Part shown: one piece after another, positions 7,941 through 20,661 of the stretch
Layout: each line of letters begins with the position of its first letter
Position numbering within the stretch: the first letter of the stretch is position 1
IMG/VR virus record: IMGVR_UViG_648276649_000004
Reading direction: 5' to 3' (one strand)
DNA from: a virus
Taxonomy: Duplodnaviria; Heunggongvirae; Uroviricota; Caudoviricetes
DNA length: 31,903 nucleotides
Notes under the pieces: generated by a model
Database searches by the model: none
The model's input: only the letters and a program-made list of their open reading frames with translations
What the model was told of the DNA's origin: nothing
Translations under genes and position numbers: made by a program

Positions 7941-8092
7941 CTTACTGTGTGCTTCTCCAACCATCGGCGCGCACCAGTTTCGGTTTTAAATGTTTTGCTT
8001 TTGGTATACGTCATGGCAGTGAACGTTCCATCCTGGTTGGGGAACACGCCGCACACCAGGGATTCGTTGTTGCCGAGGTCGATTTTTTGCAT
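7937..8092 (-). CDS. ydaF: Small Rac protein YdaF-like, 51 aa (below the ORF track cutoff)
   Basis: Hand translation of the minus strand: MQKIDLGNNESLVCGVFPNQDGTFTAMTYTKSKTFKTETGARRWLEKHTVS. Size and position agree with ydaF; the 3' end overlaps the sieB stop by 4 nt. Confidence 0.5.
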   Translation of the reverse strand: MQKIDLGNNESLVCGVFPNQDGTFTAMTYTKSKTFKTETGARRWLEKHTVS

Positions 8093-8114
8093 TTTGCGAA
8101 TCTCACATCTTGTT

Positions 8115-8237
8115 GCTACGTATAGCGACTTCTGCCTGCCAGAGATCCCAGTCGTTGCTGCGTAAAGCCTGCACAGCCTGGTTGTAAGTGATACCGCAAC
8201 AATCCATCAAATACTGAACTACTTCGTAATGCACCAT
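8115..8237 (-). CDS. ydaG: Small ORF in the ydaG position, 40 aa
   Basis: Hand translation MVHYEVVQYLMDCCGITYNQAVQALRQQRLGSLAGRSRYT, with an AGGGGAGAG ribosome-binding site upstream of the ATG. Assignment to ydaG rests on position only. Confidence 0.4.
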
Positions 8238-8449
8238 CTTATCTCTCCCCTTAACGCCGGGTGGCGGAACTAACTGCTGCACTGCAAAATTTGAATCCCG
8301 CCGTCATGTTCTTACGCCTCGGGCTGGCTACTTAACCCCTGACCACTGCCTGGTAACTCGAAGTATTGCCCTGCATTCTGTGGGGCGGGGTGGGTGGCAG
8401 GCATATAATGTACTTTGTGTTCATTGTTGTAAAGTACATTTAGTACATT

Positions 8450-8944
8450 TTATGTGTAAAAAAATGAGATGGGATAAAGTGAAGCACAAACCCGGAGGAA
8501 GGCGCTACCGGATTTATGCTGGTTTAAGAGGCTTTTTGTTTTTTTCTTTCGTGCTAACTCTTCGTAAATTGCATTGTACTTCTGTTTTTTCTCTTCAAGA
8601 GTTTTTAAAAGTTCATCTGTCTCACTGTCAGGGAGCTCGTCCAGAAGGTCAATGATGATTTTTTGTCTTGGATTTAACTCCTGATAGAAACGTACCTGTC
8701 CACTTTCTTCTGTATCCTCTCCCAAAAGATAGGTTGGTGTTGTTCCTATTAGTGTTGCTAATTCCCTTAATTTCTCCCGGCGAGGAATTGTTTCGCCATT
8801 AAACCATTTGCTAACCGCTTTTGGTGTTAATTTCATTCGACGGGCAATTTCTGCCTGCCTTCCATGTTGTTCATAACCAGCGTTTTCACAGGCTAGCGCA
8901 AGCCTACTGGCGAACTCTTTACGCGCTTTATCTTCATGAACCAT
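8450..8944 (-). CDS. racR: Prophage repressor RacR (XRE-family helix-turn-helix regulator)
   Basis: N-terminal HTH region (...QAEIARRMKLTPKAVSKWFNGETIP...) and divergent orientation to the Cro-like gene. The exact start is uncertain: M1 at 8944 or a later Met. Confidence 0.8.
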   Translation of the reverse strand: MVHEDKARKEFASRLALACENAGYEQHGRQAEIARRMKLTPKAVSKWFNGETIPRREKLRELATLIGTTPTYLLGEDTEESGQVRFYQELNPRQKIIIDLLDELPDSETDELLKTLEEKKQKYNAIYEELARKKKTKSLLNQHKSGSAFLRVCASLYPISFFYT

Positions 8945-9023
8945 AAGTTCAATGATATTCGCTCTTGAATGTACTGTCAGTTCTGTTATAGCATGTACTC
9001 AAAGTTCACATTGTGAGGGTGAT
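8945..9023. promoter_or_regulatory. Divergent promoter/operator region between racR and the Cro-like gene
   Basis: 79-bp AT-rich spacer between divergent repressor and Cro-like genes, with short repeated motifs (TGTACT, TTCA). Inferred from the classic immunity-region layout; no operator is verified. Confidence 0.4.
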
Positions 9024-9278
9024 ATGAACCAGAAAACACTTGAAGATGTAATCAAAACTGTTCGCGTTGCTGTTGTGGCCGACGTTTGTGGTGTCAGCCA
9101 AAGAGCAATCTATAAATGGATGGATAACGGAAAATTGCCTCGCACAGAATATACCGGCGAAACAAATTACGCTGAAAAAATCGCTCTTGCATCAAACGGA
9201 TTATTTTCTGCCGATGCAATTTTAACTATTGGCAGGAATAAAACTACTACGAAAAAGCTGATGGGAGTTGATTCATGA
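9024..9278 (+). CDS. ydaS: Cro-like DNA-binding protein (YdaS family)
   Basis: Translation MNQKTLEDVIKTVRVAVVADVCGVSQRAIYKWMDNGKLP... has an HTH region; GAGGG ribosome-binding site before the ATG at 9024. The longer 108-aa track ORF would start within the racR promoter region, so the internal start is preferred. Confidence 0.65.
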   Translation: MNQKTLEDVIKTVRVAVVADVCGVSQRAIYKWMDNGKLPRTEYTGETNYAEKIALASNGLFSADAILTIGRNKTTTKKLMGVDS

Positions 9279-9700
9279 AAATCAAGCATGAACACATCCG
9301 CATGGCGATGAATGCCTGGGCGCATCCGGACGGCGAAAAAGTACCGGCTGCGAAAATTACCAAAGCGTATTTCGAGCTGGGAATGACGTTCCCGGAACTG
9401 TATGACGACAGCCATCCGGAAGCCCTGGCTCGCAATACTCAGAAAATTTTCCGCTGGGTGGAGAAAGACACCCCTGATGCGGTTAAAAAAATTCAGGCGT
9501 TGTTACCAGCTATCGAAAAAGCAATGCCACCTCTGCTGGTGGCCCGAATGCGCAGTCATAGCTCAGCCTATTTTCGGGAACTAGTGGAGACGCGGGAACG
9601 ACTGGTGAGAGACGCTGATGATTTTGTCGCAGTGGCGATCGCTGGTTTCAACCAGATGAATCGTGGTGGCCCTGCAGGAAATATTGTGGCTGTGCATTGA
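9275..9700 (+). CDS. ydaT: YdaT-family protein, 141 aa
   Basis: ORF whose ATG overlaps the ydaS stop (ATGA), with a GGGAG ribosome-binding site; same position and size as Rac ydaT. Confidence 0.7.
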   Translation: MKIKHEHIRMAMNAWAHPDGEKVPAAKITKAYFELGMTFPELYDDSHPEALARNTQKIFRWVEKDTPDAVKKIQALLPAIEKAMPPLLVARMRSHSSAYFRELVETRERLVRDADDFVAVAIAGFNQMNRGGPAGNIVAVH

Positions 9701-9771
9701 CTCGCAATATTCATACCGGATCGCTTCCGGCAATTTGTGAGTAAAAAGATTCGGTATCAAAAGAGGTGAGT

Positions 9772-10842
9772 ATGGCTAACGCCTGGCTCAGATTATGGCA
9801 TGACATGCCAAATGACCCTAAGTGGCGAACAATTGCCAGGGTGTCAGGGCAGCCAATTGCAACAGTGATGGCAGTGTATATCCACCTCCTGGTGAGCGCG
9901 TCACGAAATGTCACGCGAGGTCACATTGAGGTCACGACAGAAGATTTGGCAAGTGCGCTCGACGTGACAGAAGAGGTAATTGATTCAATTTTGCAGACGA
10001 TGCAGGGGCGGGTACTTGATGGTGATTTAATCACTGGATGGGAAAAACGCCAGGTGCTTAAAGAGGACAACGGCAATATTTCGCAAACCGCAAAATCTCC
10101 TGCAGAGCGCAAGAGGGCGCAGCGAGAGAGGGAAAGAAAGCGGGAACAAAATGGCGATTGTCACGGCGCGTCACGAAATGTCACGCATATGTCACGACGA
10201 GTCACGACAGATAAAGATACAGATAAAGATACAGATCAAGAAGATCAAAACACTATGGTCCATGGCGTAAAAAACGCCACGAACCAGGCAGGGGATGTTC
10301 AGACCGTCAATCTTGGTCAGCCAGCAGGCACGACACCGGAAGCCGATTCAGCGTATGCGCTGAAAGCCGATTCGGGCGCTGTGCAGCAGGTGATGACCGC
10401 AAGGCCGGAGCAATCACACCAACTGCAGCAGCCCGAAGCCGATTCCGCCATTCAGCGGGAAGCCGATCGGGTAGTCCCGGAAAACACCGGGCAGTCTGTG
10501 GGACGAGTGGATTATCCGGATGTGTTCGAACAGGTCTGGCGGGAGTACCCGTTGCGTGCTGGGGCAAACCCGAAGAAATCCGCTTTCAGTGCCTGGAAGG
10601 CCAGATTACGCGAGGGGGTGCCACCAGAGGCCATGCTGGATGGCGTGAGGCGTTACGCAAGATACTTGGCGGCTACCGGGAAAACGGGAACGGAATTTGT
10701 TCAGCGAGCGACGACGTTTTTTGGACCGGACCGGAATTTTGAGAACCCCTGGTTGCTCCCGGTAAGCGGCACGAACAACCAGCGTTGTGTGAATCATATT
10801 TCTGAACCGGATAACGAAATTCCGCCGGGCTTCAGGGGGTAA
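9772..10842 (+). CDS. ydaU: Replication initiation protein, lambda O-like (YdaU-like but longer); contains internal iteron arrays
   Basis: ATG at 9772 preceded by an AGAGG ribosome-binding site. N-terminal region MANAWLRLWHDMPNDPKWRTIARV... followed by a Lys/Arg/Glu-rich linker and a C-terminal domain; two arrays of 10-bp-periodic TCACG repeats lie inside the coding sequence, as in O-type genes. Confidence 0.7.
   Translation: MANAWLRLWHDMPNDPKWRTIARVSGQPIATVMAVYIHLLVSASRNVTRGHIEVTTEDLASALDVTEEVIDSILQTMQGRVLDGDLITGWEKRQVLKEDNGNISQTAKSPAERKRAQRERERKREQNGDCHGASRNVTHMSRRVTTDKDTDKDTDQEDQNTMVHGVKNATNQAGDVQTVNLGQPAGTTPEADSAYALKADSGAVQQVMTARPEQSHQLQQPEADSAIQREADRVVPENTGQSVGRVDYPDVFEQVWREYPLRAGANPKKSAFSAWKARLREGVPPEAMLDGVRRYARYLAATGKTGTEFVQRATTFFGPDRNFENPWLLPVSGTNNQRCVNHISEPDNEIPPGFRG
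9898..9940. repeat. Iteron array 1: four TCACG-type repeats at 10-11 bp spacing
   Basis: Direct reading: gcgTCACGaaatgTCACGcgaggTCACAttgaggTCACGacag. Confidence 0.55.
10158..10232. repeat. Iteron array 2: five TCACG repeats at 10-11 bp spacing, followed by an A/T-rich tandem repeat (candidate origin)
   Basis: Direct reading: tgTCACGgcgcgTCACGaaatgTCACGcatatgTCACGacgagTCACGacag, then agataaagatac repeated twice. Confidence 0.55.
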
Positions 10843-10882
10843 GTGTTAATTTCTGGTCATGAGGTAATTTTCAGGAGGGCTT

Positions 10883-11305
10883 GTGGCAAAAGTTTTTACA
10901 CAAGAAGAGCGGGAAAAAATTAAAGGGCAGGTTCTTGAACTCGTACGCCAGAGTGGGCGCGAGACGTTACGACAACTGGAAGCTAAAACTGGGGCAACAA
11001 GATATCTGATGAGCGTTCTGGCCAGAGAGCTGGTTGCCAGTGGCGATGTATACAATTCTGGCTACGGGTTATTCCCGTCTGAACAGGCTCGTAAAGACTG
11101 GCAAAATGCCCGCAAAAAATTATCGAGGGCAAAGCTGAAGAAACCGGTTGTGGTTGATCCGGACCTTATCTGGTCATTACCTGACGGAGAAATACGTCGC
11201 TACGACAGTCGCCTAAACATAATCTGTCGCGAGTGCCGGAAGAGCGAAGTTATGCAGCGCATATTGTCGTTTTATCAGGGGGATGTTCGGTATTTATTGA
11301 AGTGA
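10883..11305 (+). CDS. Hypothetical protein, 140 aa (GTG start), in the slot where lambdoid phages carry P or a DnaC-like loader
   Basis: Strong CAGGAGGG ribosome-binding site 3 nt upstream of the GTG at 10883. No Walker motifs, so it is not a helicase loader; function unknown. Confidence 0.55.
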   Translation: MAKVFTQEEREKIKGQVLELVRQSGRETLRQLEAKTGATRYLMSVLARELVASGDVYNSGYGLFPSEQARKDWQNARKKLSRAKLKKPVVVDPDLIWSLPDGEIRRYDSRLNIICRECRKSEVMQRILSFYQGDVRYLLK

Positions 11306-11639
11306 CGAGATTAAAGTGCATTAGTTCAGATGCAAATTGACATTTTGTGGCACAGGGTAGAGCTAGCGTGGTTGTCCGCTTTGTGCCAAGAGCAGACGCT
11401 GGTAATTCGTGCCTAATATACTTCACTTAACTTATATCCCAGCTTTGATACAGATCATACAAATTAAATGCCCCAGTAATTGGCAGGCTGAGTAACTTAA
11501 AACTCCTTAGAATATAGGATGATTTGTATCGGCACTCATTCCACCATGCATTCCGATTAACCCCGCATAGCCAGTTGAACTTTGCTACTCTGTGAGAGGT
11601 AGTACCTTCTATCCAGTGCGGATTTAATTAATGGAATAA

Positions 11640-13643
11640 ATGATTATGAGTGAAAATGATACAACCCCAAAGAAGTCTACAAGCCAGATTAACAAAGCGG
11701 TATTCTTTACATCTGCTTTGCTAATTTTCCTTCTTGTCGCCTTTGCCGCCGTATTCCCGGATGTCGCCGACAAAAATTTTAAACTACTTCAGCAACAAAT
11801 CTTCACGAATGCCAGCTGGTTCTACATACTTGCTGTGGCCCTGATTTTACTGAGCGTCACGTTCCTTGGACTCTCACGTTACGGTGATATAAAGCTGGGC
11901 CCAGACCATGCGCAGCCTGATTTCAGCTACCACTCCTGGTTCGCGATGCTTTTTTCGGCAGGGATGGGGATCGGCCTGATGTTCTTTGGCGTTGCCGAAC
12001 CTGTGATGCATTATCTTTCGCCACCTGTCGGCACTCCAGAGACCGTTGCGGCAGCGAAGGAAGCCATGCGCCTGACGTTCTTCCACTGGGGTCTGCACGC
12101 ATGGGCAATTTATGCCATCGTGGCGCTGATTCTGGCCTTTTTCAGTTACCGTCACGGTCTGCCTTTAACGCTGCGTTCTGCGCTCTATCCCATTATCGGC
12201 GATCGCATTTACGGGCCTATAGGCCACGCGGTTGATATCTTCGCCGTGATAGGCACTGTCTTTGGCGTTGCAACATCGCTGGGTTACGGTGTATTGCAGG
12301 TGAATGCCGGTTTGAACCATCTTTTCGGCGTGCCCATCAATGAAACGGTACAGGTCATTTTGATCGTGGTCATCACGGGGTTAGCGACGATTTCGGTGGT
12401 GTCCGGCCTGGACAAGGGAATACGCATCCTGTCTGAGCTTAATCTGGGCCTGGCGGTGTTGCTCCTGGCGCTGGTCTTGTGCCTGGGTCCCACTGTGCTT
12501 CTGCTGAAGTCATTTGTGGAAAATACGGGTGGTTATCTGTCGGAACTGGTGAGTAAAACGTTCAACCTTTACGCGTATGAACCCAAGTCGAGCAACTGGC
12601 TGGGGGGCTGGACATTATTATACTGGGGATGGTGGCTTTCATGGTCGCCGTTTGTAGGTATGTTCATTGCACGCGTTTCCCGCGGCAGGACAATTCGTGA
12701 GTTCGTGACTGGCGTGTTGTTTGTTCCCGCCGGCTTTACGCTCATGTGGATGACGGTGTTTGGAAACAGCGCCATCTATCTCATCATGAACCAGGGCGCC
12801 ACTGACCTCGCCAATACCGTTCAGCAGGATGTTGCGCTTGCCCTGTTTAATTTCCTGGAGCATTTCCCGTTCTCTTCCGTGCTGTCATTCATTGCAATGG
12901 CGATGGTCATCGTCTTCTTTGTAACGTCTGCTGATTCGGGGGCAATGGTTGTGGATACTCTGGCATCAGGTGGGGTGGCAAACACGCCCGTCTGGCAGCG
13001 AATTTTCTGGGCATCGCTCATGGGCGTTGTTGCTATTGCCCTGCTGATCGCAGGGGGGCTGAGTGCGTTGCAAACCGTAACGATAGCGAGTGCATTGCCC
13101 TTCTCAGTTATCTTATTAATATCCATATACGGACTGTTAAAAGCCCTGCGTCGGGATTTGACCAAGCGTGAAAGCCTTAGCATGGCGACTATTGCTCCTA
13201 CGGCTGCACGTAACCCAATTCCCTGGCAGAGAAGGTTACGCAATATCGCGTATTTGCCGAAGCGCTCTCTTGTGAAACGTTTTATGGACGACATTATCCA
13301 ACCCGCCATGACGCTGGTTCAGGAGGAACTTAACAAGCAGGGAACGATAAGCCACATCAGTGACGCCGCCGAGGATCGTATTCGCCTTGAAGTCGATTTG
13401 GGCAACGAGCTGAATTATATATATGAAGTGAGGCTTCGCGGGTATAACTCACCGACCTTCGCGCTCGCTGCGCTGGATAATGATGAGCAGCAGAGTGAAC
13501 AACATCGATATTATCGCGCTGAAGTCTATCTCAAAGAGGGCGGCCAAAATTATGATGTAATGGGCTGGAATCAGGAACAGCTGATTAATGACATACTGGA
13601 CCAGTACGAAAAACACCTGCACTTCCTGCATCTGGTTCGTTAA
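11640..13643 (+). CDS. BCCT-family transporter, BetT-like (choline / glycine betaine type), 667 aa
   Basis: Multi-span membrane protein with BCCT hallmarks (GIGLMFFGVAEP, WTLLYWGWWLSWSPFVG, ARVSRGRTIREF) and a BetT-like cytoplasmic C-terminal extension ending ...DILDQYEKHLHFLHLVR. Confidence 0.85.
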   Translation: MIMSENDTTPKKSTSQINKAVFFTSALLIFLLVAFAAVFPDVADKNFKLLQQQIFTNASWFYILAVALILLSVTFLGLSRYGDIKLGPDHAQPDFSYHSWFAMLFSAGMGIGLMFFGVAEPVMHYLSPPVGTPETVAAAKEAMRLTFFHWGLHAWAIYAIVALILAFFSYRHGLPLTLRSALYPIIGDRIYGPIGHAVDIFAVIGTVFGVATSLGYGVLQVNAGLNHLFGVPINETVQVILIVVITGLATISVVSGLDKGIRILSELNLGLAVLLLALVLCLGPTVLLLKSFVENTGGYLSELVSKTFNLYAYEPKSSNWLGGWTLLYWGWWLSWSPFVGMFIARVSRGRTIREFVTGVLFVPAGFTLMWMTVFGNSAIYLIMNQGATDLANTVQQDVALALFNFLEHFPFSSVLSFIAMAMVIVFFVTSADSGAMVVDTLASGGVANTPVWQRIFWASLMGVVAIALLIAGGLSALQTVTIASALPFSVILLISIYGLLKALRRDLTKRESLSMATIAPTAARNPIPWQRRLRNIAYLPKRSLVKRFMDDIIQPAMTLVQEELNKQGTISHISDAAEDRIRLEVDLGNELNYIYEVRLRGYNSPTFALAALDNDEQQSEQHRYYRAEVYLKEGGQNYDVMGWNQEQLINDILDQYEKHLHFLHLVR

Positions 13644-13650
13644 CAGCAAC

Positions 13651-13679
13651 ATGCCGCCACAGAGGCGGCATTTATTTAT
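13651..13679 (+). terminator. Rho-independent terminator after the BCCT gene
   Basis: atgccgcc-acagag-ggcggcat hairpin followed by a TTTATTTAT tract, 8 nt after the stop codon. Confidence 0.6.
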
Positions 13680-13706
13680 CCCGGCTGCAATATGAGGGAA
13701 TGCAGA

Positions 13707-14984
13707 ATGATTTCACGCTGGAAATGGATGCTGAAGCAGACATTTAAAAAACTATGGTTCAGGGCAACGTTATTCGCAATTGTCGCAATAATAACGGCCC
13801 TTTTATCAATTCTTTTTAAATCAATGATACCTGAGTCGGTTTCCGTGAAGGTTGGTGCGGAAGCAGTCGATAACATTCTGAACATACTGGCATCGAGTAT
13901 GCTGGCAGTGACCACATTTTCGCTGAGCATCATGGTCACAGCCTACGGTTCAGCCACTACTAATGTGACTCCCAGAGCTACTCGTTTAGTTGTTGAAGAC
14001 GTCACCACACAAAATGTACTGGCCACCTTCATCGGTTCTTTTCTCTTCAGTCTGGTAGGGATTATTGCCCTCAATATGGGAGCTTATGGAGAAAGGGGGA
14101 GAGTCATTTTATTCATTGTAACACTGGTTGTCATTGCCTTAATCCTCATCACATTGCTTCGCTGGATACAGCATTTGACCTCTCTGGGGAGGGTTGGTGA
14201 GACAACGGCAAAAGTAGAACAGGCGGCCATCGAAACATTTATTGCGAGAGCAAGAAATCCCTGTCTCGGCGGATATCCATGGCTTGAGAACAATGAACAG
14301 CCGAAAGGAACGGTTGCAGTTTATCCGAAAAAGATTGGCTATGTTGAATATGTTGATATGGTGAAACTCAGCAAGCTGCTGACCAATGATCCCCGTCATG
14401 TATACCTCGTGGCGCAGCCGGGCAGTTTCATACATCCGTCCACGCCAGTTTTGTACCTGAGTCAGGGCCAGGAGTCATCAATCAGCACCGATTTACTTGA
14501 GACGATTATTGTCTCGGATGTACGTTCATTTGCTCAGGACCCCCGATTTTGTCTTAGCGTCATGGCCGAAATAGCCTGCCGAGCCCTTTCCCCCGCAGTG
14601 AACGATCCTGGAACCGCCATTGATGTCATTGGCAGAGGTGTACGTATACTTTCCGCTTACGCGCAGAATAAATCTGATGAAATAGAAGTGAAATATCCTT
14701 CTGTACATGTTGCACCACTTCAGAATAACGATCTACTTGAAGACTTTTTCTCACCTGTTGCGCGCGATGGTGCCAGTATGAGGGAAATTCAGATAAGGGT
14801 ACTTAAAGGACTGTCGATGCTGAGTAAGGGTTGGCCTGGAATTTTTGCTGAAGCCGCACAAACCCTAGCATTTGAAACATTAGAGCATGCTACTCGTGCT
14901 GACCATATAGATTCTGACAGATATCTAATAAAATCAATTTATTATAATTTATTTAGTGGCGAAGATTCTAATAAAAAACCATAG
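13707..14984 (+). CDS. Polytopic membrane protein with a large soluble C-terminal domain (recalled as DUF2254-type); function unknown
   Basis: GAGGGA ribosome-binding site 7 nt before the ATG at 13707. The N-terminal roughly 160 aa contain several hydrophobic helices; the C-terminal roughly 270 aa are soluble. Family assignment is from memory and unverified. Confidence 0.65.
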   Translation: MISRWKWMLKQTFKKLWFRATLFAIVAIITALLSILFKSMIPESVSVKVGAEAVDNILNILASSMLAVTTFSLSIMVTAYGSATTNVTPRATRLVVEDVTTQNVLATFIGSFLFSLVGIIALNMGAYGERGRVILFIVTLVVIALILITLLRWIQHLTSLGRVGETTAKVEQAAIETFIARARNPCLGGYPWLENNEQPKGTVAVYPKKIGYVEYVDMVKLSKLLTNDPRHVYLVAQPGSFIHPSTPVLYLSQGQESSISTDLLETIIVSDVRSFAQDPRFCLSVMAEIACRALSPAVNDPGTAIDVIGRGVRILSAYAQNKSDEIEVKYPSVHVAPLQNNDLLEDFFSPVARDGASMREIQIRVLKGLSMLSKGWPGIFAEAAQTLAFETLEHATRADHIDSDRYLIKSIYYNLFSGEDSNKKP

Positions 14985-15114
14985 TTGCGGAGCAAGCGAT
15001 ACGGTTGTTGGCAAGTCAAGGGCAAAGCATTCGCGTGAGAGTGGGCGTCTGCTTTGTGCCAGAAGCGGACATACGTAACTTATGATACGCATCGCCAATC
15101 ATCCGTTTCAAACA

Positions 15115-15996
15115 TCAACGCGGAAACGTTTTAAGAATGTAATCCCGAACATAGGCGGTTCGGCTGTTATTAGCCGTCCTTTTGTTCCAGACCAGATAAA
15201 GATGATTAGTCGGAGCGAGGTCTGCAGGTGTCACTGAAATCAGGCGACCACTTTTCAGGTCATTGTCACAGTGATAATCCGGCAGCACTGTCCACCCGTG
15301 GCCGTCACAGACCAAGTCGCGGATAATACGTAAATCCGGAATGGTGAATGTAGCCTGCATCTCAGGGGCTCTCTGAAACATGGAGGCCCAGAGCGCTCTA
15401 ATCAGTGGCAACTCTTCGTCATAAGCAATCAGCGGTAATGAGGCAAGCGTTTCAGCACCAGGTTCTGATCCGATGATCTCTGACATGGCGGGAGCATGAA
15501 CAAGGAGCATGCGTTCAGTCAGTAGATGTGCATAGCCGTACAGACGGTCATCAGGCATAGATGCGGTAACAGCGAGATCGGCGCTCCCGTCATGCAAAAG
15601 GGAATAAATACGTTGCTTATTGCCGGTATGAAAGCGTAGGCGATACCCCTCCTTCATTAGTGGAGCCATTACTGTCCCAAGCCGGGAATGAATAAAATCT
15701 GGCGGTCCTGCCAGATTAATTGTTCCCCCACGTACAGAGCCTGACCGGAAAGAGGACAGCTTTTCTTCCAGACCATCAATGAAGGGTGAAACTGAGCGGG
15801 CAAGCTCATCCGCAGCTTCGGTTGCCGTCACGCCTCTGGCCTGCCTGATAAACAGACGCTTACCAACCAGAGTCTCAAGAGACTGGATATGCTGTGACGC
15901 CGCGGGCTGAGTGATGCCCAGTAGTTCTGCCGCCTTTGAAAAGGAGCCAGAGCGATAGGCCTCAAGAAACGTTCGCAGATGGCTCAGATGGCTCAT
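15115..15996 (-). CDS. LysR-family transcriptional regulator, 293 aa
   Basis: N-terminal HTH (MSHLSHLRTFLEAYRSGSFSKAAELLGITQPAASQHIQSLE) and a LysR substrate-binding domain; the start overlaps the stop of the upstream ChaC-like gene. Confidence 0.85.
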   Translation of the reverse strand: MSHLSHLRTFLEAYRSGSFSKAAELLGITQPAASQHIQSLETLVGKRLFIRQARGVTATEAADELARSVSPFIDGLEEKLSSFRSGSVRGGTINLAGPPDFIHSRLGTVMAPLMKEGYRLRFHTGNKQRIYSLLHDGSADLAVTASMPDDRLYGYAHLLTERMLLVHAPAMSEIIGSEPGAETLASLPLIAYDEELPLIRALWASMFQRAPEMQATFTIPDLRIIRDLVCDGHGWTVLPDYHCDNDLKSGRLISVTPADLAPTNHLYLVWNKRTANNSRTAYVRDYILKTFPR

Positions 15997-16685
15997 AGTG
16001 AAGCGCCTCGCTGATGAAGTTTATCGTTACAGGGAGCCTCATGCAGAGCAAGGGCCAGTTCACTCACGTAATCATCCCGTATTCCCAACGCACCCAGAGT
16101 GGCCTGCAGTTTCCATACATAATCTGCATTCGTGCCAATGTCTCCACGGGCAGATGCGATGCTCAACGCTACGGTCGCTGTAAGATTGTCCTGTTCATAA
16201 TGCGGATGCAGTCTGTCTGATACGAAAGCCAGCGCCTGAATTTCCTTACCGTTTCCTAGCGAAACGTCTGCCCAGACCGGACGGTAAAGACCGGTTATCA
16301 TCTCGCGCGTCCAGACAATTTCCAGCTCATTAATAAGAGTCGATTCCGGCAGTCTGAACGCAATACCTTCGGTAATTCCACCTTCGTCGAGCGATAACAT
16401 CCTGCCGGGGACATCAGGAGTCGCTCGTCCGGATATCAAACGAATGCAGAAACTGCGCTGCCATCCTTTCAGACGGGCCCGTTGCATTTCTTCAATCGCC
16501 AGCACGGGATTCCACATCAATGACCCGTAGGCAAATATCCAGACAGGAGCACCCGTCGGGCGCTCCTCCAGAGTAGAGTTCATTGATGCGCGTATTTTTT
16601 CAGCGTCCCAGAGCATATTCGCCGGGAGCAGCGCTTCATGCACCCTGACAAATGTGCCATTAAGCATATTTTCACGGGTAAGCAT
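15993..16685 (-). CDS. ChaC-like gamma-glutamylcyclotransferase family protein, 230 aa
   Basis: Contains the YGSLMWNP motif and overall ChaC-like architecture; GGGAGG ribosome-binding site upstream of the ATG at 16685. Confidence 0.75.
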   Translation of the reverse strand: MLTRENMLNGTFVRVHEALLPANMLWDAEKIRASMNSTLEERPTGAPVWIFAYGSLMWNPVLAIEEMQRARLKGWQRSFCIRLISGRATPDVPGRMLSLDEGGITEGIAFRLPESTLINELEIVWTREMITGLYRPVWADVSLGNGKEIQALAFVSDRLHPHYEQDNLTATVALSIASARGDIGTNADYVWKLQATLGALGIRDDYVSELALALHEAPCNDKLHQRGASL

Positions 16686-16696
16686 ATAACCTCCCT

Positions 16697-17896
16697 TTAC
16701 TGGCCTACGATTTTAACCTGTTGAAATTTACGACTGTGGCTGCGACGGATTTGTGCAAGCAGCAACAGCAGGCCGAGCAGAGAAACAATCGCACCGCTGA
16801 TACCGGTATACACGATACCGGCGTGGCTTATAGTAATGCTGCCCAGTACTGATCCCAGCGCTATACCTGAGTTGAAGCCCGCAATATTCAGGCCGGCAGC
16901 AACACCATGCGCATGAGGAGCATGTTGCTCAGCGACACCAATCAGACGGGCCTGCAGTGCCGGCACTGCGGCAAATGTCACCATACCCAGCAGCGCAACC
17001 AGAATGCCCATGCTCACCGGTGAGGATGACAGCAGCCACATACCAAGCACGACAACAACAATGCCGCTAATGATGAGTATATTGGCACGATTAACCCCCA
17101 TGCTGTCGGTAAGTTTCCCACCAAGAATATTACCTACCGCAGCTGTAATACCGTAAACCAGCATAAACAGACTCACCGTTGCTCCGGTAACCCCTGTCAC
17201 CTGCGTCAGAATAGGTGCGATAAAGGTGTAATCCGTAAACGAGCCTGCATACGCCAGCACCGTAACCAGCGCGCCGGCCAGCAACTTACGGTTAAACAGC
17301 ATGCCGATATTCTGCATTGCTGAGTCACTATGTTCACCGGGCACGCTGCGTACGGGATCTTTCATACCGAACAACAGTCCAAGGAATCCGAACGCGCCAA
17401 AAGCGGCAATAGCGCCGAGAACTGGACGCCATGAGACCACCCCCCCCAACCATGTACTCAGCGGTACGCCGATTGCCATCGCCAGAGTAAAGCCACCAAA
17501 TACCACAGCCACCGCTCTGCCTGCTTTACCCGGTCCAGCAAGACGAGCTGCGGTACTGGATGCCGCAGCCAGAAACAGGCCGTGTCCCAGACCAGCAATG
17601 AACCGCGCTAACAGGAGCTGAGGTAATGTGGCTGCAAACGCGGCCGCCAGACTACCGGCAGTAAACACAACGGCAGTTGTAAGCATTACATTTTTCCGGC
17701 TCCAGCTTGCTGTCAGCGCAGACAGTACGGGTGCCGCGAACGTTGCCCCCAGTGCATAGGTTGTAACCGCTGCCCCGGTCTGCTCCACACCCACACACAA
17801 CCCCTGAGCCATAACGTCTGTCAGCCCAATGGGGACAAATTCCGCGAGTCCGAGCGCAAAGGCACTGATAGTAAACACATAAATAACAAATGGCAT
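16697..17896 (-). CDS. MFS transporter (12-TM efflux-type permease), 399 aa
   Basis: Highly hydrophobic 399-aa ORF with an MFS-like layout; AGGAG ribosome-binding site 6 nt upstream of the ATG. It forms a same-strand cluster with the ChaC-like and LysR genes. Confidence 0.85.
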   Translation of the reverse strand: MPFVIYVFTISAFALGLAEFVPIGLTDVMAQGLCVGVEQTGAAVTTYALGATFAAPVLSALTASWSRKNVMLTTAVVFTAGSLAAAFAATLPQLLLARFIAGLGHGLFLAAASSTAARLAGPGKAGRAVAVVFGGFTLAMAIGVPLSTWLGGVVSWRPVLGAIAAFGAFGFLGLLFGMKDPVRSVPGEHSDSAMQNIGMLFNRKLLAGALVTVLAYAGSFTDYTFIAPILTQVTGVTGATVSLFMLVYGITAAVGNILGGKLTDSMGVNRANILIISGIVVVVLGMWLLSSSPVSMGILVALLGMVTFAAVPALQARLIGVAEQHAPHAHGVAAGLNIAGFNSGIALGSVLGSITISHAGIVYTGISGAIVSLLGLLLLLAQIRRSHSRKFQQVKIVGQ

Positions 17897-18315
17897 GACT
17901 GGCTCCTGATTTAAGTAAGGAGTGCAGTCTGATTTAGAAAAACAGATAAATAAAATAATGTAAACTTCAGGCGGGATAAAATTATTTATATCTAAGGCAA
18001 AGATTCAATATTCCCACAGCACACAGAAGTTTTCTGTCTTCAGGGAGAGGAGCTTCGAAAGTTCAGACGAAAAATTCCTGCGGCCCCTTTAAGAGTCAGT
18101 TGGCCGGGTTTGGTCCGCTCCTCGCTCAAAGCGGACTAGAAGGTTAGCTTGCGTCGGACTTGGCGTATTTAAAGAAGTGCTGGTGGTGACTGGTTGTTGT
18201 GTTCCATTTCTACAGAACAAAATCACAGAAACTATACCCAATAGTTATATTGAATCAATGATGAGACAGCCTCATATTTATCAGAACTGGTGTACGTCCA
18301 ATACAGGAGGTTGTC

Positions 18316-18405
18316 GTGCTGGTTCTCAAATGTGCGCTAGCTATTGCGGCTGTAATGGCAATTTATTGTCTTGCTGTTGTTCTTATGGAGCGGCTTTCTG
18401 ATTGA
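18316..18405 (+). CDS. Candidate small hydrophobic peptide, 29 aa (MLVLKCALAIAAVMAIYCLAVVLMERLSD)
   Basis: Perfect AGGAGG Shine-Dalgarno 5 nt upstream of the GTG at 18316; predicted single transmembrane helix. It competes with the 74-aa track ORF in another frame, so this is a low-confidence call. Confidence 0.3.
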   Translation: MLVLKCALAIAAVMAIYCLAVVLMERLSD

Positions 18406-18619
18406 TTACATACTGGCTAGAAAAAAGGTGTTACCTTGGTTTATCTTTGTCCGGCAAGGTGCGCTCATTAATCTTAAGTAAATTTATTGCTCAAGTATTC
18501 AGATTACTTCTTATGGTTGAAGTCTCCTGTCAATGTAGAACCAATATATTTACAAAAATGAGACCCGTCGGGGATAGCCCTGCCGGGTCTGACTGTTAAA
18601 GCATTTTTAATATGATCAT

Positions 18620-18958
18620 CTATTTTTTGGTGCTATAGACTTTTTCGCCCGAGAAGTCTGGAGCGACCCAAAAGTTAATATTAAACTGAGCATCATCGCT
18701 TAGTTCAACACGGTGCCAGTATTGTGGTGGGCTTGTTGCAAAAGCGCCAGCATTAATGACTACTTTTATCTCCGGTTCAGTAGCATTCTCATCAGTAAAA
18801 CCATAATATGTTACAGTGCCTTCCATTACGCACAACTGCCCAAAAACACCTGCTGCTGTATTATGATGTGTTAATAACGCTGAAGGTACGTTCTCTTTTG
18901 TGAAGAACGGAGTTGAGCGTTTGATTACCCAATCTTTAGGAATTCTCTTGTGTGTCAT
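18620..18958 (-). CDS. YeaR-like protein (DUF1971 / tellurite-resistance-associated fold), about 112 aa
   Basis: Similarity by eye to E. coli YeaR (...RSTPFFTKENVP..., ...YWHRVE..., ...FNINFWVAPDF...); start taken at the internal Met, which has a GAGG ribosome-binding site. Confidence 0.7.
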   Translation of the reverse strand: MTHKRIPKDWVIKRSTPFFTKENVPSALLTHHNTAAGVFGQLCVMEGTVTYYGFTDENATEPEIKVVINAGAFATSPPQYWHRVELSDDAQFNINFWVAPDFSGEKVYSTKK

Positions 18959-19771
18959 AACCACCTCATCAAAAACATGCATTATAAATGCGTGTTTTTG
19001 AGGGTTATGTCAAGCTGTTATGAAACACATAATTGATATGTTGATTAGAGGAGAAGATATAATAAATATGGTTGTTTTTCGTATAACTATTTGTTTTACT
19101 TTTAGTTTATGCATTCTGTGTGTTAGGAATAAGTTATTAAAGTTTAATCAAAAAATCTCGATGTAGTCCACATAGATTATTGTTACTGAACCTTATTGTG
19201 TGTATTAGTTGTGTTCTGAAATTTCAGCTTAATTATTTATGATGTATTTTTTAACGATAAATATTTTCCCAGGATACCTTTACTGTGTATATAAATAAAT
19301 TATATACACATAAATAATGTAAAGGCGTCCTTTTAGATATATCTTATCAAATGTTAATGACTTGAGTGGGAAATATGATTCCAGCAACTTATCATGTGGC
19401 TACTTTATAAAAATAATGCCCATATAAAACAACAAGCGAAAAGGATTACGGATAAAAAAGGAGCGAGATGTGCGAACTTGTTATTTTCCATGTTTAACCA
19501 CCTTAAATAATTGATGATGACGGGATGATTGCATCTGTAATGCTTTTATTGAAATGTTATGATAAAAAAGAACTTTTGCATAACATTAAAATGTAATTTA
19601 TCTAATCGTTTTTAATAATAAATGTCGTATTTCTATCCTTGTACCAGCTATTTGATATGTAGTGTTTGTTCATGCTATGTGGGGCTTTACACCATAGCCA
19701 GTTTATTTATACTTTATTCGTCAGCCTGAACAACTGGCATCTGCTGCGCTGCGCCATCGAGAGATTGAGAA

Positions 19772-20371
19772 ATGGCGCATATACAACTGGTCAAACAAAC
19801 TTCTTCTGGTTTACTTCTCCCGGCGACGCCGGAGAGTTGCGATTTTCTGCATCAAATCAAAATAGGTGAGTGGATACACGCAGACTTTAAGCGTGTGCGT
19901 AACTACGCATTCCACAAGCGTTTTTTCAAACTCCTGCAACTGGGATTCGATTACTGGACTCCGGTCGGTGGGGCGATCACGCCTCGCGAACGAGAACTGC
20001 TGTCTGGTTTCGTTGATTACCTGTGCGAATCAGTTGGTCGGGAACACACGCCAGCCCTGAGTGATGCCGCAGAGCAATACCTTAACACCGTTGCGACTCG
20101 TAGAACCCGGGATACGGCGTTGCTAAAGTCGTTTGAGGCTTTCCGCGAGTGGGTAACCATTCAGGCCGGATTTTACACCGAGCATATTTATCCGGACGGT
20201 AGCCGTGGGCGTCGGGCAAAATCCATCGCTTTTGCGAATATGGACGAAGTCGAGTTTCAGCAGGTTTATAAATCTGTACTGAATGTGCTGTGGAACTGGA
20301 TTCTGTTTCGTAAATTCTCCTCTCAGGAGGAAGTTGAAAATGTGGCCGCACAACTACTGGAGTTTGCGTAA
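19772..20371 (+). CDS. Lambdoid nin-region protein (recalled as DUF1367-like), 199 aa
   Basis: First ORF after the AT-rich spacer; its stop overlaps the start of the next gene, as in nin operons. Family assignment is from memory. Confidence 0.5.
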   Translation: MAHIQLVKQTSSGLLLPATPESCDFLHQIKIGEWIHADFKRVRNYAFHKRFFKLLQLGFDYWTPVGGAITPRERELLSGFVDYLCESVGREHTPALSDAAEQYLNTVATRRTRDTALLKSFEAFREWVTIQAGFYTEHIYPDGSRGRRAKSIAFANMDEVEFQQVYKSVLNVLWNWILFRKFSSQEEVENVAAQLLEFA

Positions 20372-20661
20372 TGGTGAATTTACGTAAAGCGGCTAAAGGC
20401 CAGATGTGCCAGATCAGAATCCCTGGCTACTGCAATCACAATCCCGAAACCTCTGTGCTGGCGCATTACAGGCTGGCGGGGACGTGCGGAACAGCGACAA
20501 AACCACACGATATGCAGGCGGCGATAGCCTGTAGCTCATGCCACGATCTAATCGACGGGCGGGTAAAAACCAGCGATTACACCAAAGAAGAATTGCGCCT
20601 GATGCATGCTGAAGGGGTTTTTCGCACACAAGAAATCTGGAGAAAGAAAGGTCATTTATGA
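20371..20661 (+). CDS. YbcO-like (DUF1364) putative nuclease of lambdoid prophages, 96 aa
   Basis: 96-aa Cys/His-rich protein (...CQIRIPGYCNHNPETSVLAHYR...CSSCHDLIDGR...) of the size and pattern recalled for DLP12 YbcO; translationally coupled to both neighbours. Confidence 0.65.
   Translation: MVNLRKAAKGQMCQIRIPGYCNHNPETSVLAHYRLAGTCGTATKPHDMQAAIACSSCHDLIDGRVKTSDYTKEELRLMHAEGVFRTQEIWRKKGHL

What the first reader, a model, noticed from the sequence alone, without database searches (positions are those of the whole stretch)
13707..14984. Stand-alone membrane protein of unknown function with its own ribosome-binding site downstream of a terminator
An N-terminal multi-helix membrane anchor is joined to a roughly 270-aa soluble domain, carried as cargo in a prophage and transcriptionally separated from the BCCT gene by a terminator. 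Membrane-anchored single-gene effectors in prophage cargo are a recurring class of abortive-infection candidates, although a role in transport or osmoadaptation with the BCCT protein is equally plausible. This is speculative.
Basis: inference. Interest (0 to 1): 0.4.

Follow-up and report, generated by a model that had tools for sequence, protein, structure and literature searches.

The report
DUF2254 membrane protein, BetT cassette partner
The gene is real but not stand-alone: it encodes a known, uncharacterised DUF2254 inner-membrane protein that travels with a BetT-type choline transporter as a two-gene mobile cassette in prophages, plasmids and chromosomes, and nothing marks it as an anti-phage gene.

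Summary
ORF 13707-14984 (+) is a real 425-aa gene. It matches Pfam DUF2254 (E 1.5e-92), shows dN/dS of about 0.1, and is identical to proteins RefSeq already annotates as DUF2254 in E. coli. The RBS, the upstream hairpin with a T-run, the four N-terminal TM helices, the roughly 270-aa cytoplasmic domain and the position as Rac-prophage cargo are all confirmed.

"Stand-alone" and "transcriptionally separated" are not supported. The gene is the second half of a 3.7-kb betT-DUF2254 cassette (window 11374-15070). About 1,370 of 5,426 complete E. coli genomes and about 1,460 plasmids, mostly conjugative Klebsiella plasmids, carry the cassette intact, and so does Kluyvera. BCCT adjacency recurs in four independent gene arrangements. 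The hairpin leaves only 35 nt before the ATG, which is too short for a promoter.

There is no PADLOC hit and no defence-island enrichment: 5 of 143 neighbours of homologues match a PADLOC model. No relative has a solved structure, and a confident model of the soluble domain has no significant fold match in PDB or BFVD.

Best guess, which is inferred: a BetT-linked osmolyte or ion-homeostasis membrane protein.

In passing: 24-bp hairpin sites mark the exact cassette borders of a prophage cargo slot that holds defence candidates in other prophages.

The parts
11374..11397 (+). Left cassette-junction site, GTCCGCTTTGTGCCAAGAGCAGAC (24 bp, hairpin-like: 7-nt inverted arms and a 10-nt asymmetric loop)
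   Evidence: Pattern search: 3 copies in the window, 0 expected by chance. Homology with plasmid L083 begins at its first base. Backbone homology with other Rac-like contigs ends at 11397.
11646..13643 (+). BetT-type BCCT transporter gene, the first gene of the cassette. It is 665 aa from the RefSeq start at 11646; the ORF is open from 11640.
   Evidence: Pfam BCCT E 7e-199. NCBIfam 'choline BCCT transporter BetT' subfamily, 752 bits against a 695 cut-off. RefSeq annotation. dN/dS about 0.026.
13651..13680 (+). Intercistronic hairpin (13651-13671) plus T-rich tail. It looks like an intrinsic terminator and is proposed here to act as a partial terminator or attenuator inside the operon.
   Evidence: Terminator scan. 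Folds at -14.4 kcal/mol. A hairpin at the same position is kept with compensatory changes in Kluyvera, Serratia, a MAG and Pluralibacter.
13694..13699 (+). Shine-Dalgarno-like GAGGGA, 7 nt upstream of the ATG
   Evidence: Read directly from the sequence.
13707..14984 (+). DUF2254 gene, 425 aa plus stop (the finding)
   Evidence: Pfam PF10011 E 1.5e-92, profile positions 3-366 of 368. 100% identical to RefSeq WP_000625667.1. dN/dS 0.10-0.12.
13758..14165 (+). Region encoding the four TM helices (residues about 18-153). TM2 and TM3 are the best-conserved segments of the family.
   Evidence: Hydropathy. AF2 helices 18-40, 51-86, 99-124 and 128-159. Conservation 0.73 and 0.69 in 141 diverse representatives.
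14184..14981 (+). Region encoding the cytoplasmic C-terminal domain (residues 160-425): an alpha/beta subdomain plus a helical bundle. It contains the conserved stretch RSFxQDPRF...SPAVNDPGTA (residues 273-304).
   Evidence: AF2 model m4130f2a0eaa7, pLDDT 92.7, pTM 0.88. Family-wide invariant residues R273, D278, E288, N299, D300, G302 and T303. No Foldseek match at E<=0.001 in PDB or BFVD.
15047..15070 (+). Second junction site, GTCTGCTTTGTGCCAGAAGCGGAC. It marks the right end of the betT-DUF2254 cassette and the left end of the next cassette.
   Evidence: homology with plasmid L083 and with Kluyvera stops at or just after this site.
15115..17896 (-). Neighbouring second cassette on the opposite strand: LysR regulator (15115-15996), ChaC-like gamma-glutamylcyclotransferase (15993-16685) and MFS transporter (16697-17896). 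It is context, not part of the betT-DUF2254 unit.
   Evidence: Pfam and NCBIfam. RefSeq annotation. Not shared with Kluyvera or with the plasmids.
18113..18136 (-). Third junction site (GTCCGCTTTGAGCGAGGAGCGGAC on the - strand). It marks the right border of the cargo slot.
   Evidence: 2 mismatches to the pattern. Backbone homology with other Rac-like contigs resumes at 18122.

Best explanation
The ORF encodes an inner-membrane protein of the uncharacterised family DUF2254 (PF10011). It has four TM helices, N-terminus inside, followed by a cytoplasmic domain of about 270 aa whose fold has no detectable counterpart among solved structures.

It is not a stand-alone gene. It is the distal gene of a 3.7-kb two-gene mobile cassette, betT-like BCCT transporter then DUF2254. 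The cassette is bounded by 24-bp hairpin sites and has landed in the cargo slot of this Rac-type prophage.

Proposed mechanism:
- The pair is transcribed from a promoter upstream of the transporter gene.
- The conserved intercistronic hairpin stops or stabilises part of the transcripts, so DUF2254 is made from read-through mRNA using its own RBS, at a lower level than the transporter.
- In the membrane, DUF2254 works in the same physiology as the BetT-type choline/betaine importer, that is osmolyte or ion homeostasis. The most likely forms are a regulated channel-like or sensor-type protein. Its conserved polar cluster would act as the gating or ligand site. That cluster comprises cytoplasmic loop 2 (P89, R90, D98) and the C-domain loops (R273, D278, E288, N299, D300).

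Shown: gene identity, topology prediction, cassette structure and mobility, conserved hairpin, lack of room for a promoter, purifying selection, absence of defence signatures. Inferred: co-transcription, reduced expression, any physical or functional coupling to BetT, and the channel or sensor activity.
For: Identity:
- PF10011 at 310.7 bits, full length.
- About 5,900 family representatives at E<=1e-3.
- 100% identical to annotated RefSeq DUF2254 proteins.
- dN/dS 0.10-0.12.

Cassette:
- Window 11376-15074 is one block shared at 90% nt identity with Kluyvera.
- The same two genes lie together on 1,462 plasmids at >=80% coverage, among them IncFIB(K)/IncFII(K) Klebsiella and IncFIA plasmids.
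- They also lie together at a second, IS-flanked chromosomal site in E. coli.
- Homology to a plasmid copy starts and ends exactly at the 24-bp sites.

Recurrent BCCT link:
- 17 of 80 relatives have a BCCT within 8 kb.
- Adjacent, same-strand pairs occur in four distinct arrangements: the enterobacterial cassette, Pantoea (order reversed), Agrobacterium, and an Aurantimonadaceae MAG.
- My own rough estimate of the chance expectation is about 1% per locus.

Operon reading:
- The intergenic gap is 63 nt.
- The hairpin is conserved with compensatory changes in four other taxa.
- Only 25-35 nt separate hairpin and ATG everywhere.
- No + strand promoter hit lies upstream of the ATG.

More than an anchor:
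- TM2 (0.73), TM3 (0.69) and residues 271-320 (0.68) are the most conserved segments.
- Invariant charged residues lie in the cytoplasmic loop and in the C-domain.

Ion and osmolyte context: other recurring neighbours are NhaA, CLC, Na/H exchangers and MgtE.
Against: - No experiment on any DUF2254 protein was found.
- About 80% of the sampled relatives have no BCCT nearby, and the neighbourhoods are otherwise very variable (95 and 88 different Pfam families among 72 and 74 neighbours). The family's core function therefore cannot depend on BetT.
- The NhaA and CLC associations come from only a few related genera.
- In about 590 E. coli genomes the cassette is incomplete. In the E. coli B locus examined, DUF2254 is cut off after about 113 aa by IS911 while the BCCT gene stays intact. 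This argues against an obligate partnership.
- The hairpin has a good T-run and could be a full terminator, which would leave the gene poorly expressed.
- The two genes differ in GC (0.51 against 0.45) and in dS to the other E. coli allele (0.33 against 0.09). This shows recombination inside the cassette.
- The channel or sensor idea rests only on architecture and conservation. Foldseek finds no channel-like homologue.
- The TM part of the model has low confidence, pLDDT 52-72.
Confidence: 0.45

Rival explanations
1. DUF2254 is an autonomous membrane protein, for example an ion channel, stress sensor or small-solute exporter. Its function has nothing to do with BetT, and the two genes merely hitch-hike together on one mobile fragment.
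For: - Most relatives lack a BCCT neighbour (63 of 80 loci).
- Neighbourhoods are highly variable.
- The E. coli B locus keeps BCCT with DUF2254 truncated, and the listed partial places in other E. coli genomes show the same pattern.
- Different GC and dS in the two genes suggest separate histories.
Against: - Same-strand adjacency to BetT-type (>=660 aa) BCCT genes arose in four different arrangements in distant lineages.
- 1,462 plasmids carry the cassette at >=80% coverage, against about 1,500 plasmids with a high-identity DUF2254 hit.
- The short spacer with the conserved hairpin and no room for a promoter ties expression to the BCCT gene.
Confidence: 0.3
2. DUF2254 is a membrane-anchored abortive-infection or superinfection-exclusion effector carried as a prophage moron.
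For: - It lies in a Rac cargo slot that, in related prophages, holds proteins matching PADLOC candidates: FRG/PDC-S15, TIR/PDC-S35, RelA_SpoT, HNH, trypsin-like. Five of ten sampled cassette proteins matched.
- One E. coli chromosomal copy lies about 5 kb from McrBC.
- The fold is uncharacterised, so a role as a membrane effector cannot be excluded.
Against: - No PADLOC hit.
- Only 5 of 143 neighbours of homologues match PADLOC.
- No full-length copy in 50,697 deposited phage records.
- The family is large and mostly chromosomal across Proteobacteria, next to transporters.
- It is always paired with a conserved, strongly constrained transporter gene.
- Truncated copies are common, at least one made by an IS insertion, with no partner 'antitoxin' apparent.
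Confidence: 0.08
3. DUF2254 is a membrane-bound enzyme. Its conserved D/E/N/R cluster at the membrane-cytoplasm interface would be a catalytic site, acting for example on a lipid head group, a choline-derived compound or a nucleoside. A 2012 neighbourhood-based study guessed guanosine phosphorylase.
For: - Invariant R90, D98, R273, D278, E288, N299 and D300.
- PMC3377989 assigned DUF2254 to orphan EC 2.4.2.15 by genomic context.
- There is a weak local Foldseek alignment to thymidine phosphorylase 4x46_A: 99 columns, probability 0.98, E 0.39.
Against: - The Foldseek hit is not significant (E 0.39, TM 0.23) and covers only part of the domain.
- No Pfam, NCBIfam or PDB sequence similarity to any enzyme.
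- No conserved metabolic operon surrounds the family.
Confidence: 0.1
4. The ORF is decaying or functionless cargo that merely persists in the prophage.
For: About 30% of E. coli genomes that have the locus carry an incomplete copy.
Against: - The frame is intact here.
- dN/dS is 0.10-0.12 against three alleles.
- Protein identity is 96.7% across more than 1,200 plasmid copies, mostly Klebsiella.
- The family is deeply conserved, with invariant residues.
Confidence: 0.03

Closest known systems
Pfam DUF2254 (PF10011; InterPro IPR018723), 'predicted membrane protein'
   Same: Full-length match far above threshold. It shares the architecture of four TM helices plus a C-terminal domain and the same conserved motifs. 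It is identical to RefSeq proteins already named 'DUF2254 domain-containing protein'.
   Different: Nothing differs: it is a plain member. The family has no known function. The papers found mention it only for a predicted trefoil knot or slipknot in AlphaFold models (PMC11184937), a context-based enzyme guess (PMC3377989) and a machine-learning marker list (PMC12440251).
E. coli bet regulon (betT with betIBA): osmoprotective choline uptake and oxidation to glycine betaine
   Same: The upstream gene meets the NCBIfam BetT subfamily cut-off. It has the long C-terminal cytoplasmic extension typical of BetT (665 aa against a 485-position BCCT core).
   Different: The cassette has no betI, betA or betB. 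In their place it carries DUF2254, which the canonical bet locus lacks (established knowledge of the bet regulon). The substrate of this BetT paralogue is untested.
Membrane-spanning prophage exclusion or abortive-infection proteins (for example lambda RexB, or SieB, which this same Rac prophage carries)
   Same: Prophage-borne, multi-pass inner-membrane protein in a cargo position.
   Different: No sequence or profile similarity to any PADLOC model. The gene is not specific to phages, and it is paired with a transporter rather than a sensor. The family is mostly chromosomal, with no defence-rich neighbourhoods.
Channels built from a few TM helices plus a cytoplasmic regulatory domain (bestrophin/YneE, MscS, CorA/ZntB types)
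   Same: Only the overall layout is similar: a small, conserved TM bundle followed by a large cytoplasmic domain, and neighbours that are often ion transporters.
   Different: Foldseek found no match at E<=0.001 for the whole model or for the C-domain against 350,542 PDB chains, and no PDB sequence match. This is an analogy recalled from memory, not a tested relationship.
Cassette systems bounded by short recombination sites (integron attC cassettes; XerCD/pdif modules of Acinetobacter plasmids). This comparison applies to the 24-bp junction sites only.
   Same: Short imperfect-palindrome sites sit exactly at cassette borders. Cassettes occur in arrays, and the same cassette is found in unrelated backbones.
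   Different: By direct reading, the site (GTCYGCT-N10-AGCRGAC) does not resemble the attC core sites (GTTRRRY) or the dif/pdif XerC/XerD arms. That consensus is from memory. No integron integrase was looked for, and no mechanism is shown. Exchange by short-homology recombination, for example by the RecET that Rac encodes, is an untested alternative.

Membership tests
DUF2254 (PF10011) | Profile HMM match above the Pfam gathering score over most of the model | tested here: met
   310.7 bits against a 28.8 cut-off, E 1.5e-92. Residues 15-369 align to profile positions 3-366 of 368. Both halves match separately.
DUF2254 (PF10011) | Architecture: N-terminal multi-pass membrane region followed by a soluble C-terminal domain | tested here: met
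   Four hydrophobic segments and a K/R-rich N-terminus. AF2 helices, with a C-domain of pLDDT above 90.
DUF2254 (PF10011) | Family-wide conserved residues are present | tested here: met
   P89, R90, D98, W153, R273, D278, E288, N299, D300, G302 and T303 are at least 95% conserved in 141 diverse representatives, and all are present in the query.
Conserved betT-DUF2254 two-gene cassette | BetT-type BCCT gene directly upstream on the same strand, a spacer of about 60-65 nt with a hairpin, and shared borders | tested here: met
   The window spacer is 63 nt. The same layout occurs in Kluyvera, Serratia/Buttiauxella contigs, a MAG, Pluralibacter, Klebsiella and E. coli plasmids, and a second E. coli chromosomal site.
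Intrinsic (Rho-independent) terminator | GC-rich stem-loop directly followed by a U-run | tested here: met
   8-bp stem with 6 GC pairs, 5-nt loop, tail TTTATTTAT, -14.4 kcal/mol. The T-run is weak in Pluralibacter.
Intrinsic (Rho-independent) terminator | Actually terminates transcription, and how efficiently | not testable with these tools
   This needs Term-seq, RT-PCR or a reporter assay.
Known or candidate anti-phage defence systems (PADLOC-DB v2) | Match to a defence-protein HMM | tested here: not met
   No family at E<=1.
Known or candidate anti-phage defence systems (PADLOC-DB v2) | Homologues enriched in defence islands | tested here: not met
   5 of 143 immediate neighbours in 73 genomes match a PADLOC model at E<=1e-10. 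The top Pfam families among neighbours are transporters.
Known or candidate anti-phage defence systems (PADLOC-DB v2) | Protects against phage infection | not testable with these tools
   This needs a phage-challenge experiment.
Structurally characterised channel or transporter folds | Significant fold similarity to a solved structure | tested here: not met
   The best Foldseek E-values are 0.12 for the full model and 0.037 for the C-domain, both to designed helical repeats or 14-3-3 proteins. No PDB sequence hit.
Prophage moron / cargo gene | Lies inside a prophage but is absent from related prophages at the same position | tested here: met
   Backbone homology with other Rac-like contigs stops at 11397 and resumes at 18122, with different cargo between. 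Rac annotation.

The most novel reading that the evidence does not exclude
Two linked ideas make up the most novel reading.

(1) DUF2254 is a membrane protein with a fold not yet represented in the PDB. It acts as a regulated partner, for example a valve or a sensor, of BetT-type osmolyte importers. That would explain why the pair has spread as one cassette to about a quarter of complete E. coli genomes and to more than 1,200 Klebsiella plasmids.

(2) The cassette moves by a cassette-exchange system that I could not find described. Its junctions are 24-bp hairpin sites (GTCYGCT-N10-AGCRGAC). These sites define a cargo slot downstream of the DUF977 gene in Rac-like prophages and also occur on plasmids. 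The same slot shuffles defence candidates and metabolic genes.
Probability: 0.2. Interest if true: 0.65.

Novelty: already known. Interest (0 to 1): 0.3.

Why it matters
As a gene it is ordinary. The identical protein is already annotated as 'DUF2254 domain-containing protein' in hundreds of E. coli genomes, and the abortive-infection idea finds no support.

What gives it some value is scale and ignorance. A protein with no known function and no detectable fold match among solved structures is carried, always together with a BetT-type transporter, by about 25% of complete E. coli genomes and by about 2% of all plasmids in PLSDB. Those plasmids are mostly large conjugative Klebsiella pneumoniae plasmids that also carry metal- and drug-resistance genes. 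If the pair improves osmotic or ionic fitness, for example in urine, gut or dry hospital surfaces, it would be an overlooked fitness module of clinically important plasmids. It would also give a first functional handle on a family with thousands of members.

The 24-bp junction sites seen in passing may explain how such cargo, including anti-phage genes, is exchanged between prophages and plasmids.

Tried and rejected
- Sequence searches. Single-sequence and profile searches of PDB sequences found nothing. NCBIfam found nothing. Permissive Pfam scans of the separate halves found only DUF2254. PHROGs gave only an unnamed prophage-derived family.
- Literature. There is no functional study of DUF2254/PF10011. 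Most 'PF10011' hits are Plasmodium gene identifiers. Nothing was found on Rac plus BCCT, on DUF977/ydaW as a hotspot, or on the junction site.
- Guanosine phosphorylase guess from PMC3377989. Rejected as unsupported for a 4-TM protein; the only hint is a non-significant local match to thymidine phosphorylase.
- 'Empty site' search. A search with the DUF977 and DUF1367 genes joined found no E. coli genome with both within about 1 kb, so it was uninformative. Junctions were defined by pairwise comparison instead.
- Rfam scan of 11200-19800. No RNA family matched the hairpins.
- Cluster-member names for ten distant representatives gave no useful names.
- NhaA and CLC neighbour enrichment was considered as evidence for an ion-channel role. 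It was down-weighted because each comes from a few related genera.
- A separate promoter for DUF2254. None was found by the consensus scan, and there is no space after the hairpin. A non-consensus promoter inside the 3' end of the BCCT gene cannot be excluded.
Full report
**1. The observation**

The window has an ORF from ATG 13707 to the stop at 14984 on the + strand, 425 aa. An in-frame ATG at 13692 would add five residues. RefSeq starts the identical protein (WP_000625667.1) at the position equivalent to 13707, and the N-terminal consensus of 50 homologues also begins there.

GAGGGA at 13694-13699 lies 7 nt before the ATG. Eight bases after the stop of the upstream gene there is a hairpin at 13651-13671, with an 8-bp stem (6 GC pairs) and a 5-nt loop, followed by TTTATTTAT. 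It folds at -14.4 kcal/mol.

Hydropathy gives four TM segments at about residues 18-41, 56-78, 102-124 and 131-153. The N-terminus is K/R-rich, so the roughly 270-aa C-terminal domain should be cytoplasmic. The AF2 secondary structure agrees.

The gene is real. Pfam DUF2254 (PF10011) matches at E 1.5e-92 over nearly the whole model. dN/dS against three other alleles is 0.10-0.12.

**2. Where it sits**

The window is E. coli DNA. Bases 1-8395 and 9264-24632 are 99.5-99.8% identical to the Rac prophage of strain ECCWS199, which carries intR, xisR, ralR, recT, recE, kilR, sieB, a ydaT-family gene and a DUF977 gene, then, after the insert, DUF1367, DUF1364, DUF1133 and the lysis genes. The finding lies in an insert between the DUF977 gene and the DUF1367 gene, so "prophage cargo" is correct.

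The insert holds three units:
- a BetT-type BCCT transporter and DUF2254 on the + strand;
- a LysR regulator, a ChaC-like gamma-glutamylcyclotransferase and an MFS transporter on the - strand;
- a DUF1971 gene in an AT-rich stretch.

**3. It is not stand-alone**

Only window 11376-15074, which is exactly the BCCT and DUF2254 genes with their flanks, is shared with Kluyvera, at 90% nt identity. Two short contigs labelled Serratia and Buttiauxella share a slightly shorter block that starts at 11516-11585 and ends at 15059, at 89% identity. Pluralibacter and a MAG have the same gene pair at about 74% nt identity.

In PLSDB, 1,531 plasmids match this 3.7-kb block and 1,462 of them at 80% coverage or more. 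Of the matching plasmids, 1,266 are from Klebsiella and 1,204 are conjugative. Examples are an IncFIB/IncFII Klebsiella plasmid, where the pair sits between IS elements next to the sil operon, and an IncFIA plasmid, where it lies near qnrS1.

In 5,426 complete E. coli genomes, 1,966 have a match and 1,373 carry the block at 80% coverage or more. There are two alleles:
- an allele at 99% identity or more (409 records), which is the one found as Rac cargo in the strain examined and on plasmids;
- an allele at about 94% identity (about 1,550 records), seen at a different, IS-flanked chromosomal island in the two loci examined.

The BCCT protein meets the NCBIfam cut-off for the BetT subfamily (752 against 695 bits) and is under strong constraint, with dN/dS of 0.026.

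Among the 80 closest relatives from one-genome-per-species GTDB contigs, 17 have a BCCT gene within 8 kb. Same-strand adjacency occurs in four different arrangements:
- the enterobacterial cassette, BCCT first;
- Pantoea, DUF2254 first;
- Agrobacterium, BCCT first, with only 50% identical proteins;
- an Aurantimonadaceae MAG, DUF2254 first.

All adjacent BCCTs are long, BetT-like proteins of 660 aa or more. With a few BCCT genes per genome, my rough estimate of the chance expectation for a 16-kb window is about 1%.

**4. "Transcriptionally separated" is unlikely**

The hairpin is real, and it is conserved at the same place with compensatory stem changes in Kluyvera, the Serratia-labelled contig, the MAG and Pluralibacter. 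Everywhere, only 25-35 nt separate the hairpin from the DUF2254 start codon. That cannot hold a -35/-10 promoter plus a leader with the RBS. The consensus scan finds no + strand promoter in the 300 nt upstream.

The simplest reading is an operon with an intercistronic attenuator or stabiliser hairpin, which lets a fraction of transcripts reach DUF2254. This is an inference. A non-consensus promoter inside the end of the BCCT gene is not excluded.

**5. What the protein is**

The family is large: 5,868 representatives of 50%-identity clusters at E<=1e-3. It has no known function.

The papers found mention DUF2254 in only three ways:
- as a family whose AlphaFold models contain a trefoil knot or a slipknot (PMC11184937);
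- as a context-based guess of guanosine phosphorylase (PMC3377989);
- in a machine-learning marker list for Salmonella (PMC12440251).

NCBIfam has no model for it. PDB sequences give no hit, either for a 50-sequence profile or for the C-domain alone.

The AF2 models behave differently in the two halves. The full-length model has pLDDT 80.8 overall, with the TM part at only 52-72. The C-domain alone has pLDDT 92.7 and pTM 0.88. It consists of an alpha/beta subdomain at residues about 186-270 and a helical bundle at 279-416.

Foldseek finds nothing at E<=0.001 in 350,542 PDB chains or in BFVD. The best hits are designed helical repeats and 14-3-3 proteins, at E 0.04-0.1. So the soluble domain has no detectable solved counterpart.

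In 141 diverse representatives the best-conserved segments are TM2 (0.73), TM3 (0.69) and residues 271-320 (0.68). Residues conserved at 95% or more include P89, R90 and D98 in the predicted cytoplasmic loop 2, W153 at the end of TM4, and R273, D278, E288, N299, D300, G302 and T303 in the C-domain. The membrane part is therefore more than an anchor.

**6. Defence or transport?**

*Against defence:*
- No PADLOC model matches.
- Of 143 immediate neighbours of homologues in 73 genomes, only 5 match a PADLOC model at E<=1e-10.
- The commonest neighbour families are BCCT (8), NhaA (5), CLC (4), Na/H exchangers (3), MFS (6), GntP/CitMHS (3) and MgtE (2), within otherwise very variable surroundings.
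- No deposited phage genome has a full-length copy.

*For defence, only location:* the slot the gene occupies holds defence candidates in other prophages (section 7), and one E. coli chromosomal copy is about 5 kb from McrBC.

*Limits of the transport reading:*
- About 80% of relatives lack a nearby BCCT.
- The NhaA and CLC associations come from a few related genera.
- About 590 E. coli genomes carry an incomplete cassette. In the E. coli B locus examined, and in the other partial places listed, the BCCT gene is intact but DUF2254 is cut off, in E. coli B after about 113 aa by IS911.
- GC (0.51 against 0.45) and dS to the other E. coli allele (0.33 against 0.09) differ between the two genes, so the cassette is itself mosaic.

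*My ranking:*
- BetT-linked osmolyte or ion-homeostasis membrane protein, perhaps a regulated channel or sensor: about 0.45.
- Autonomous membrane protein that merely hitch-hikes with BetT: about 0.3.
- Membrane-bound enzyme: about 0.1.
- Abortive-infection or exclusion effector: about 0.08.
- Decaying cargo: about 0.03.

**7. Seen in passing: cassette-junction sites**

A 24-bp hairpin-like site, GTCYGCT-N10-AGCRGAC, occurs at 11374-11397 (+), 15047-15070 (+) and 18113-18136 (-). None is expected by chance. These positions are exactly the borders of the betT-DUF2254 unit and of the LysR-GGCT-MFS unit.

Homology between the window and the IncFIA plasmid copy begins at the first base of the left site and ends just after the right site, and the flanks are unrelated. 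On that plasmid the next cassette ends at a third site. Five other Rac-like viral contigs share the backbone up to 11397 and again from 18122, with different cargo between.

In 40 of them the site lies shortly downstream of a DUF977 gene.

Pairs of sites bracket many different one- to three-gene cassettes, often with low GC. One is a 1,008-bp cassette with a 269-aa protein of unknown function (7 copies). Another is a 1,466-bp cassette with NUDIX and HAD genes (5 copies). The 3,673-bp betT-DUF2254 cassette appears 5 times.

Five of ten sampled cassette proteins match PADLOC candidates: FRG/PDC-S15, CAP12-type TIR/PDC-S35, RelA_SpoT/PDC-S33, an HNH nuclease, and a trypsin-like protease.

Rfam has no match for the site, and I found no paper describing it. 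The mechanism is unknown. It could be a site-specific recombinase, hairpin-directed recombination, or short-homology exchange by phage recombinases such as the RecET that Rac encodes.

**8. Comparison with what is known, and verdict**

The protein is a plain member of DUF2254, and all the defining features tested were met. It is not a member of any PADLOC family or of any structurally characterised channel fold; both were tested and not met. Its layout recalls small-TM-bundle channels with a cytoplasmic domain, but that is only an analogy.

The gene itself is already known and annotated. What this analysis adds:
- the gene is half of a widespread mobile betT-DUF2254 cassette;
- the hairpin is probably an internal attenuator;
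- the soluble domain has no fold match among solved structures;
- the family-wide gene context gives no support to the defence idea.

Interest is modest, 0.3. It is raised a little by the gene's prevalence on clinically important plasmids and by the junction sites, which deserve their own study.

Noticed in passing
window 11374-11397 (+), 15047-15070 (+), 18113-18136 (-); also L083 6668, 10341, 14095; L002 1117 (degenerate), 5403: A 24-bp hairpin-like site, GTCYGCT-N10-AGCRGAC (loop TTGTGCCARR or TTGAGCGARR), lies exactly at the borders of the cargo cassettes. The same betT-DUF2254 cassette with the same sites occurs on an IncFIA plasmid with unrelated flanks. I found no Rfam family and no paper describing the site, and the recombination mechanism is unknown.
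   Followed up: partly
viral loci L086-L205, e.g. L098 8671-10472, L110 979-3158, L148 5812-7406, L171 960-2561, L178 2043-3749, L114 10691-11699, L093 1149-2615: In IMG/VR at least 120 stretches carry the site, and in 40 of them it lies shortly downstream of a DUF977 gene (the Rac-like backbone). Pairs of sites bracket diverse, often low-GC cassettes. Five of ten sampled proteins hit PADLOC candidates (FRG/PDC-S15, TIR/PDC-S35, RelA_SpoT, HNH, trypsin-like). This is a variable cargo slot, partly filled with defence candidates, in Rac-like prophages.
   Followed up: partly
window 15115-17896 (-) and 18620-18982 (-): A second cargo cassette encodes a LysR regulator, a ChaC-like gamma-glutamylcyclotransferase and an MFS transporter. 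The MFS protein's best NCBIfam match is Cmx/CmrA chloramphenicol efflux, at 207 bits, well below the 400-bit cut-off. Beyond it a DUF1971 (TehB N-terminal-like) gene lies in a 34% GC stretch. PMC6379469 lists chaC and LysR genes as cargo of a 'Qin' prophage in strain CRE1540.
   Followed up: partly
window about 24633-31903: The right end of the window is not Rac-like. It matches a Qin-type prophage end (iss/bor-like gene, DUF1441, terminase fragment, tail-fibre fragment, tfaQ, then ydfJ). None of 5,426 complete E. coli genomes holds window 18000-31903 in one place at 80% coverage or more. The window therefore looks like a Rac-left/Qin-right hybrid, perhaps from recombination or inversion between the two prophages.
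   Followed up: partly
window 8396-9263: The immunity-region segment differs from the otherwise 99.5-99.8% identical Rac of strain ECCWS199. This is local mosaicism around the repressor and regulator genes.
   Followed up: no
window 11646-13643 versus 13707-14984; L084: Between the Rac allele and the other E. coli chromosomal allele, dS is 0.33 for the BCCT gene but only 0.09 for DUF2254. GC also differs (0.51 against 0.45). This points to a recombination breakpoint inside the cassette.
   Followed up: no
L085 8170-8508 (E. coli B-LamR); one search hits H90-H96: In the E. coli B derivative examined, DUF2254 is truncated after about 113 aa by IS911 while the BCCT gene stays intact. Six other E. 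coli genomes listed in the same search show partial matches that likewise end inside DUF2254. About 590 E. coli genomes carry an incomplete cassette.
   Followed up: partly
window 781-2016 (-): The Rac integrase ORF is intact here at 411 aa. The near-identical Rac of ECCWS199 has intR annotated as a pseudogene with an internal stop.
   Followed up: no
window 22752-22775 (+): A weaker fourth copy of the junction-site pattern (3 mismatches, poor stem) lies between two TolA-C-terminal-like cargo ORFs. It may be a degenerate site or a chance match.
   Followed up: no
L082 (Klebsiella IncFIB/IncFII plasmid) 7741-11078: On the plasmid examined, a large conjugative K. pneumoniae plasmid, the betT-DUF2254 pair sits between IS1/IS3 copies next to the sil copper/silver operon on one side and EAL and GGDEF genes on the other. 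Many other Klebsiella plasmid records carry it at nearly the same coordinates, so it appears to be a stable part of this plasmid backbone.
   Followed up: partly
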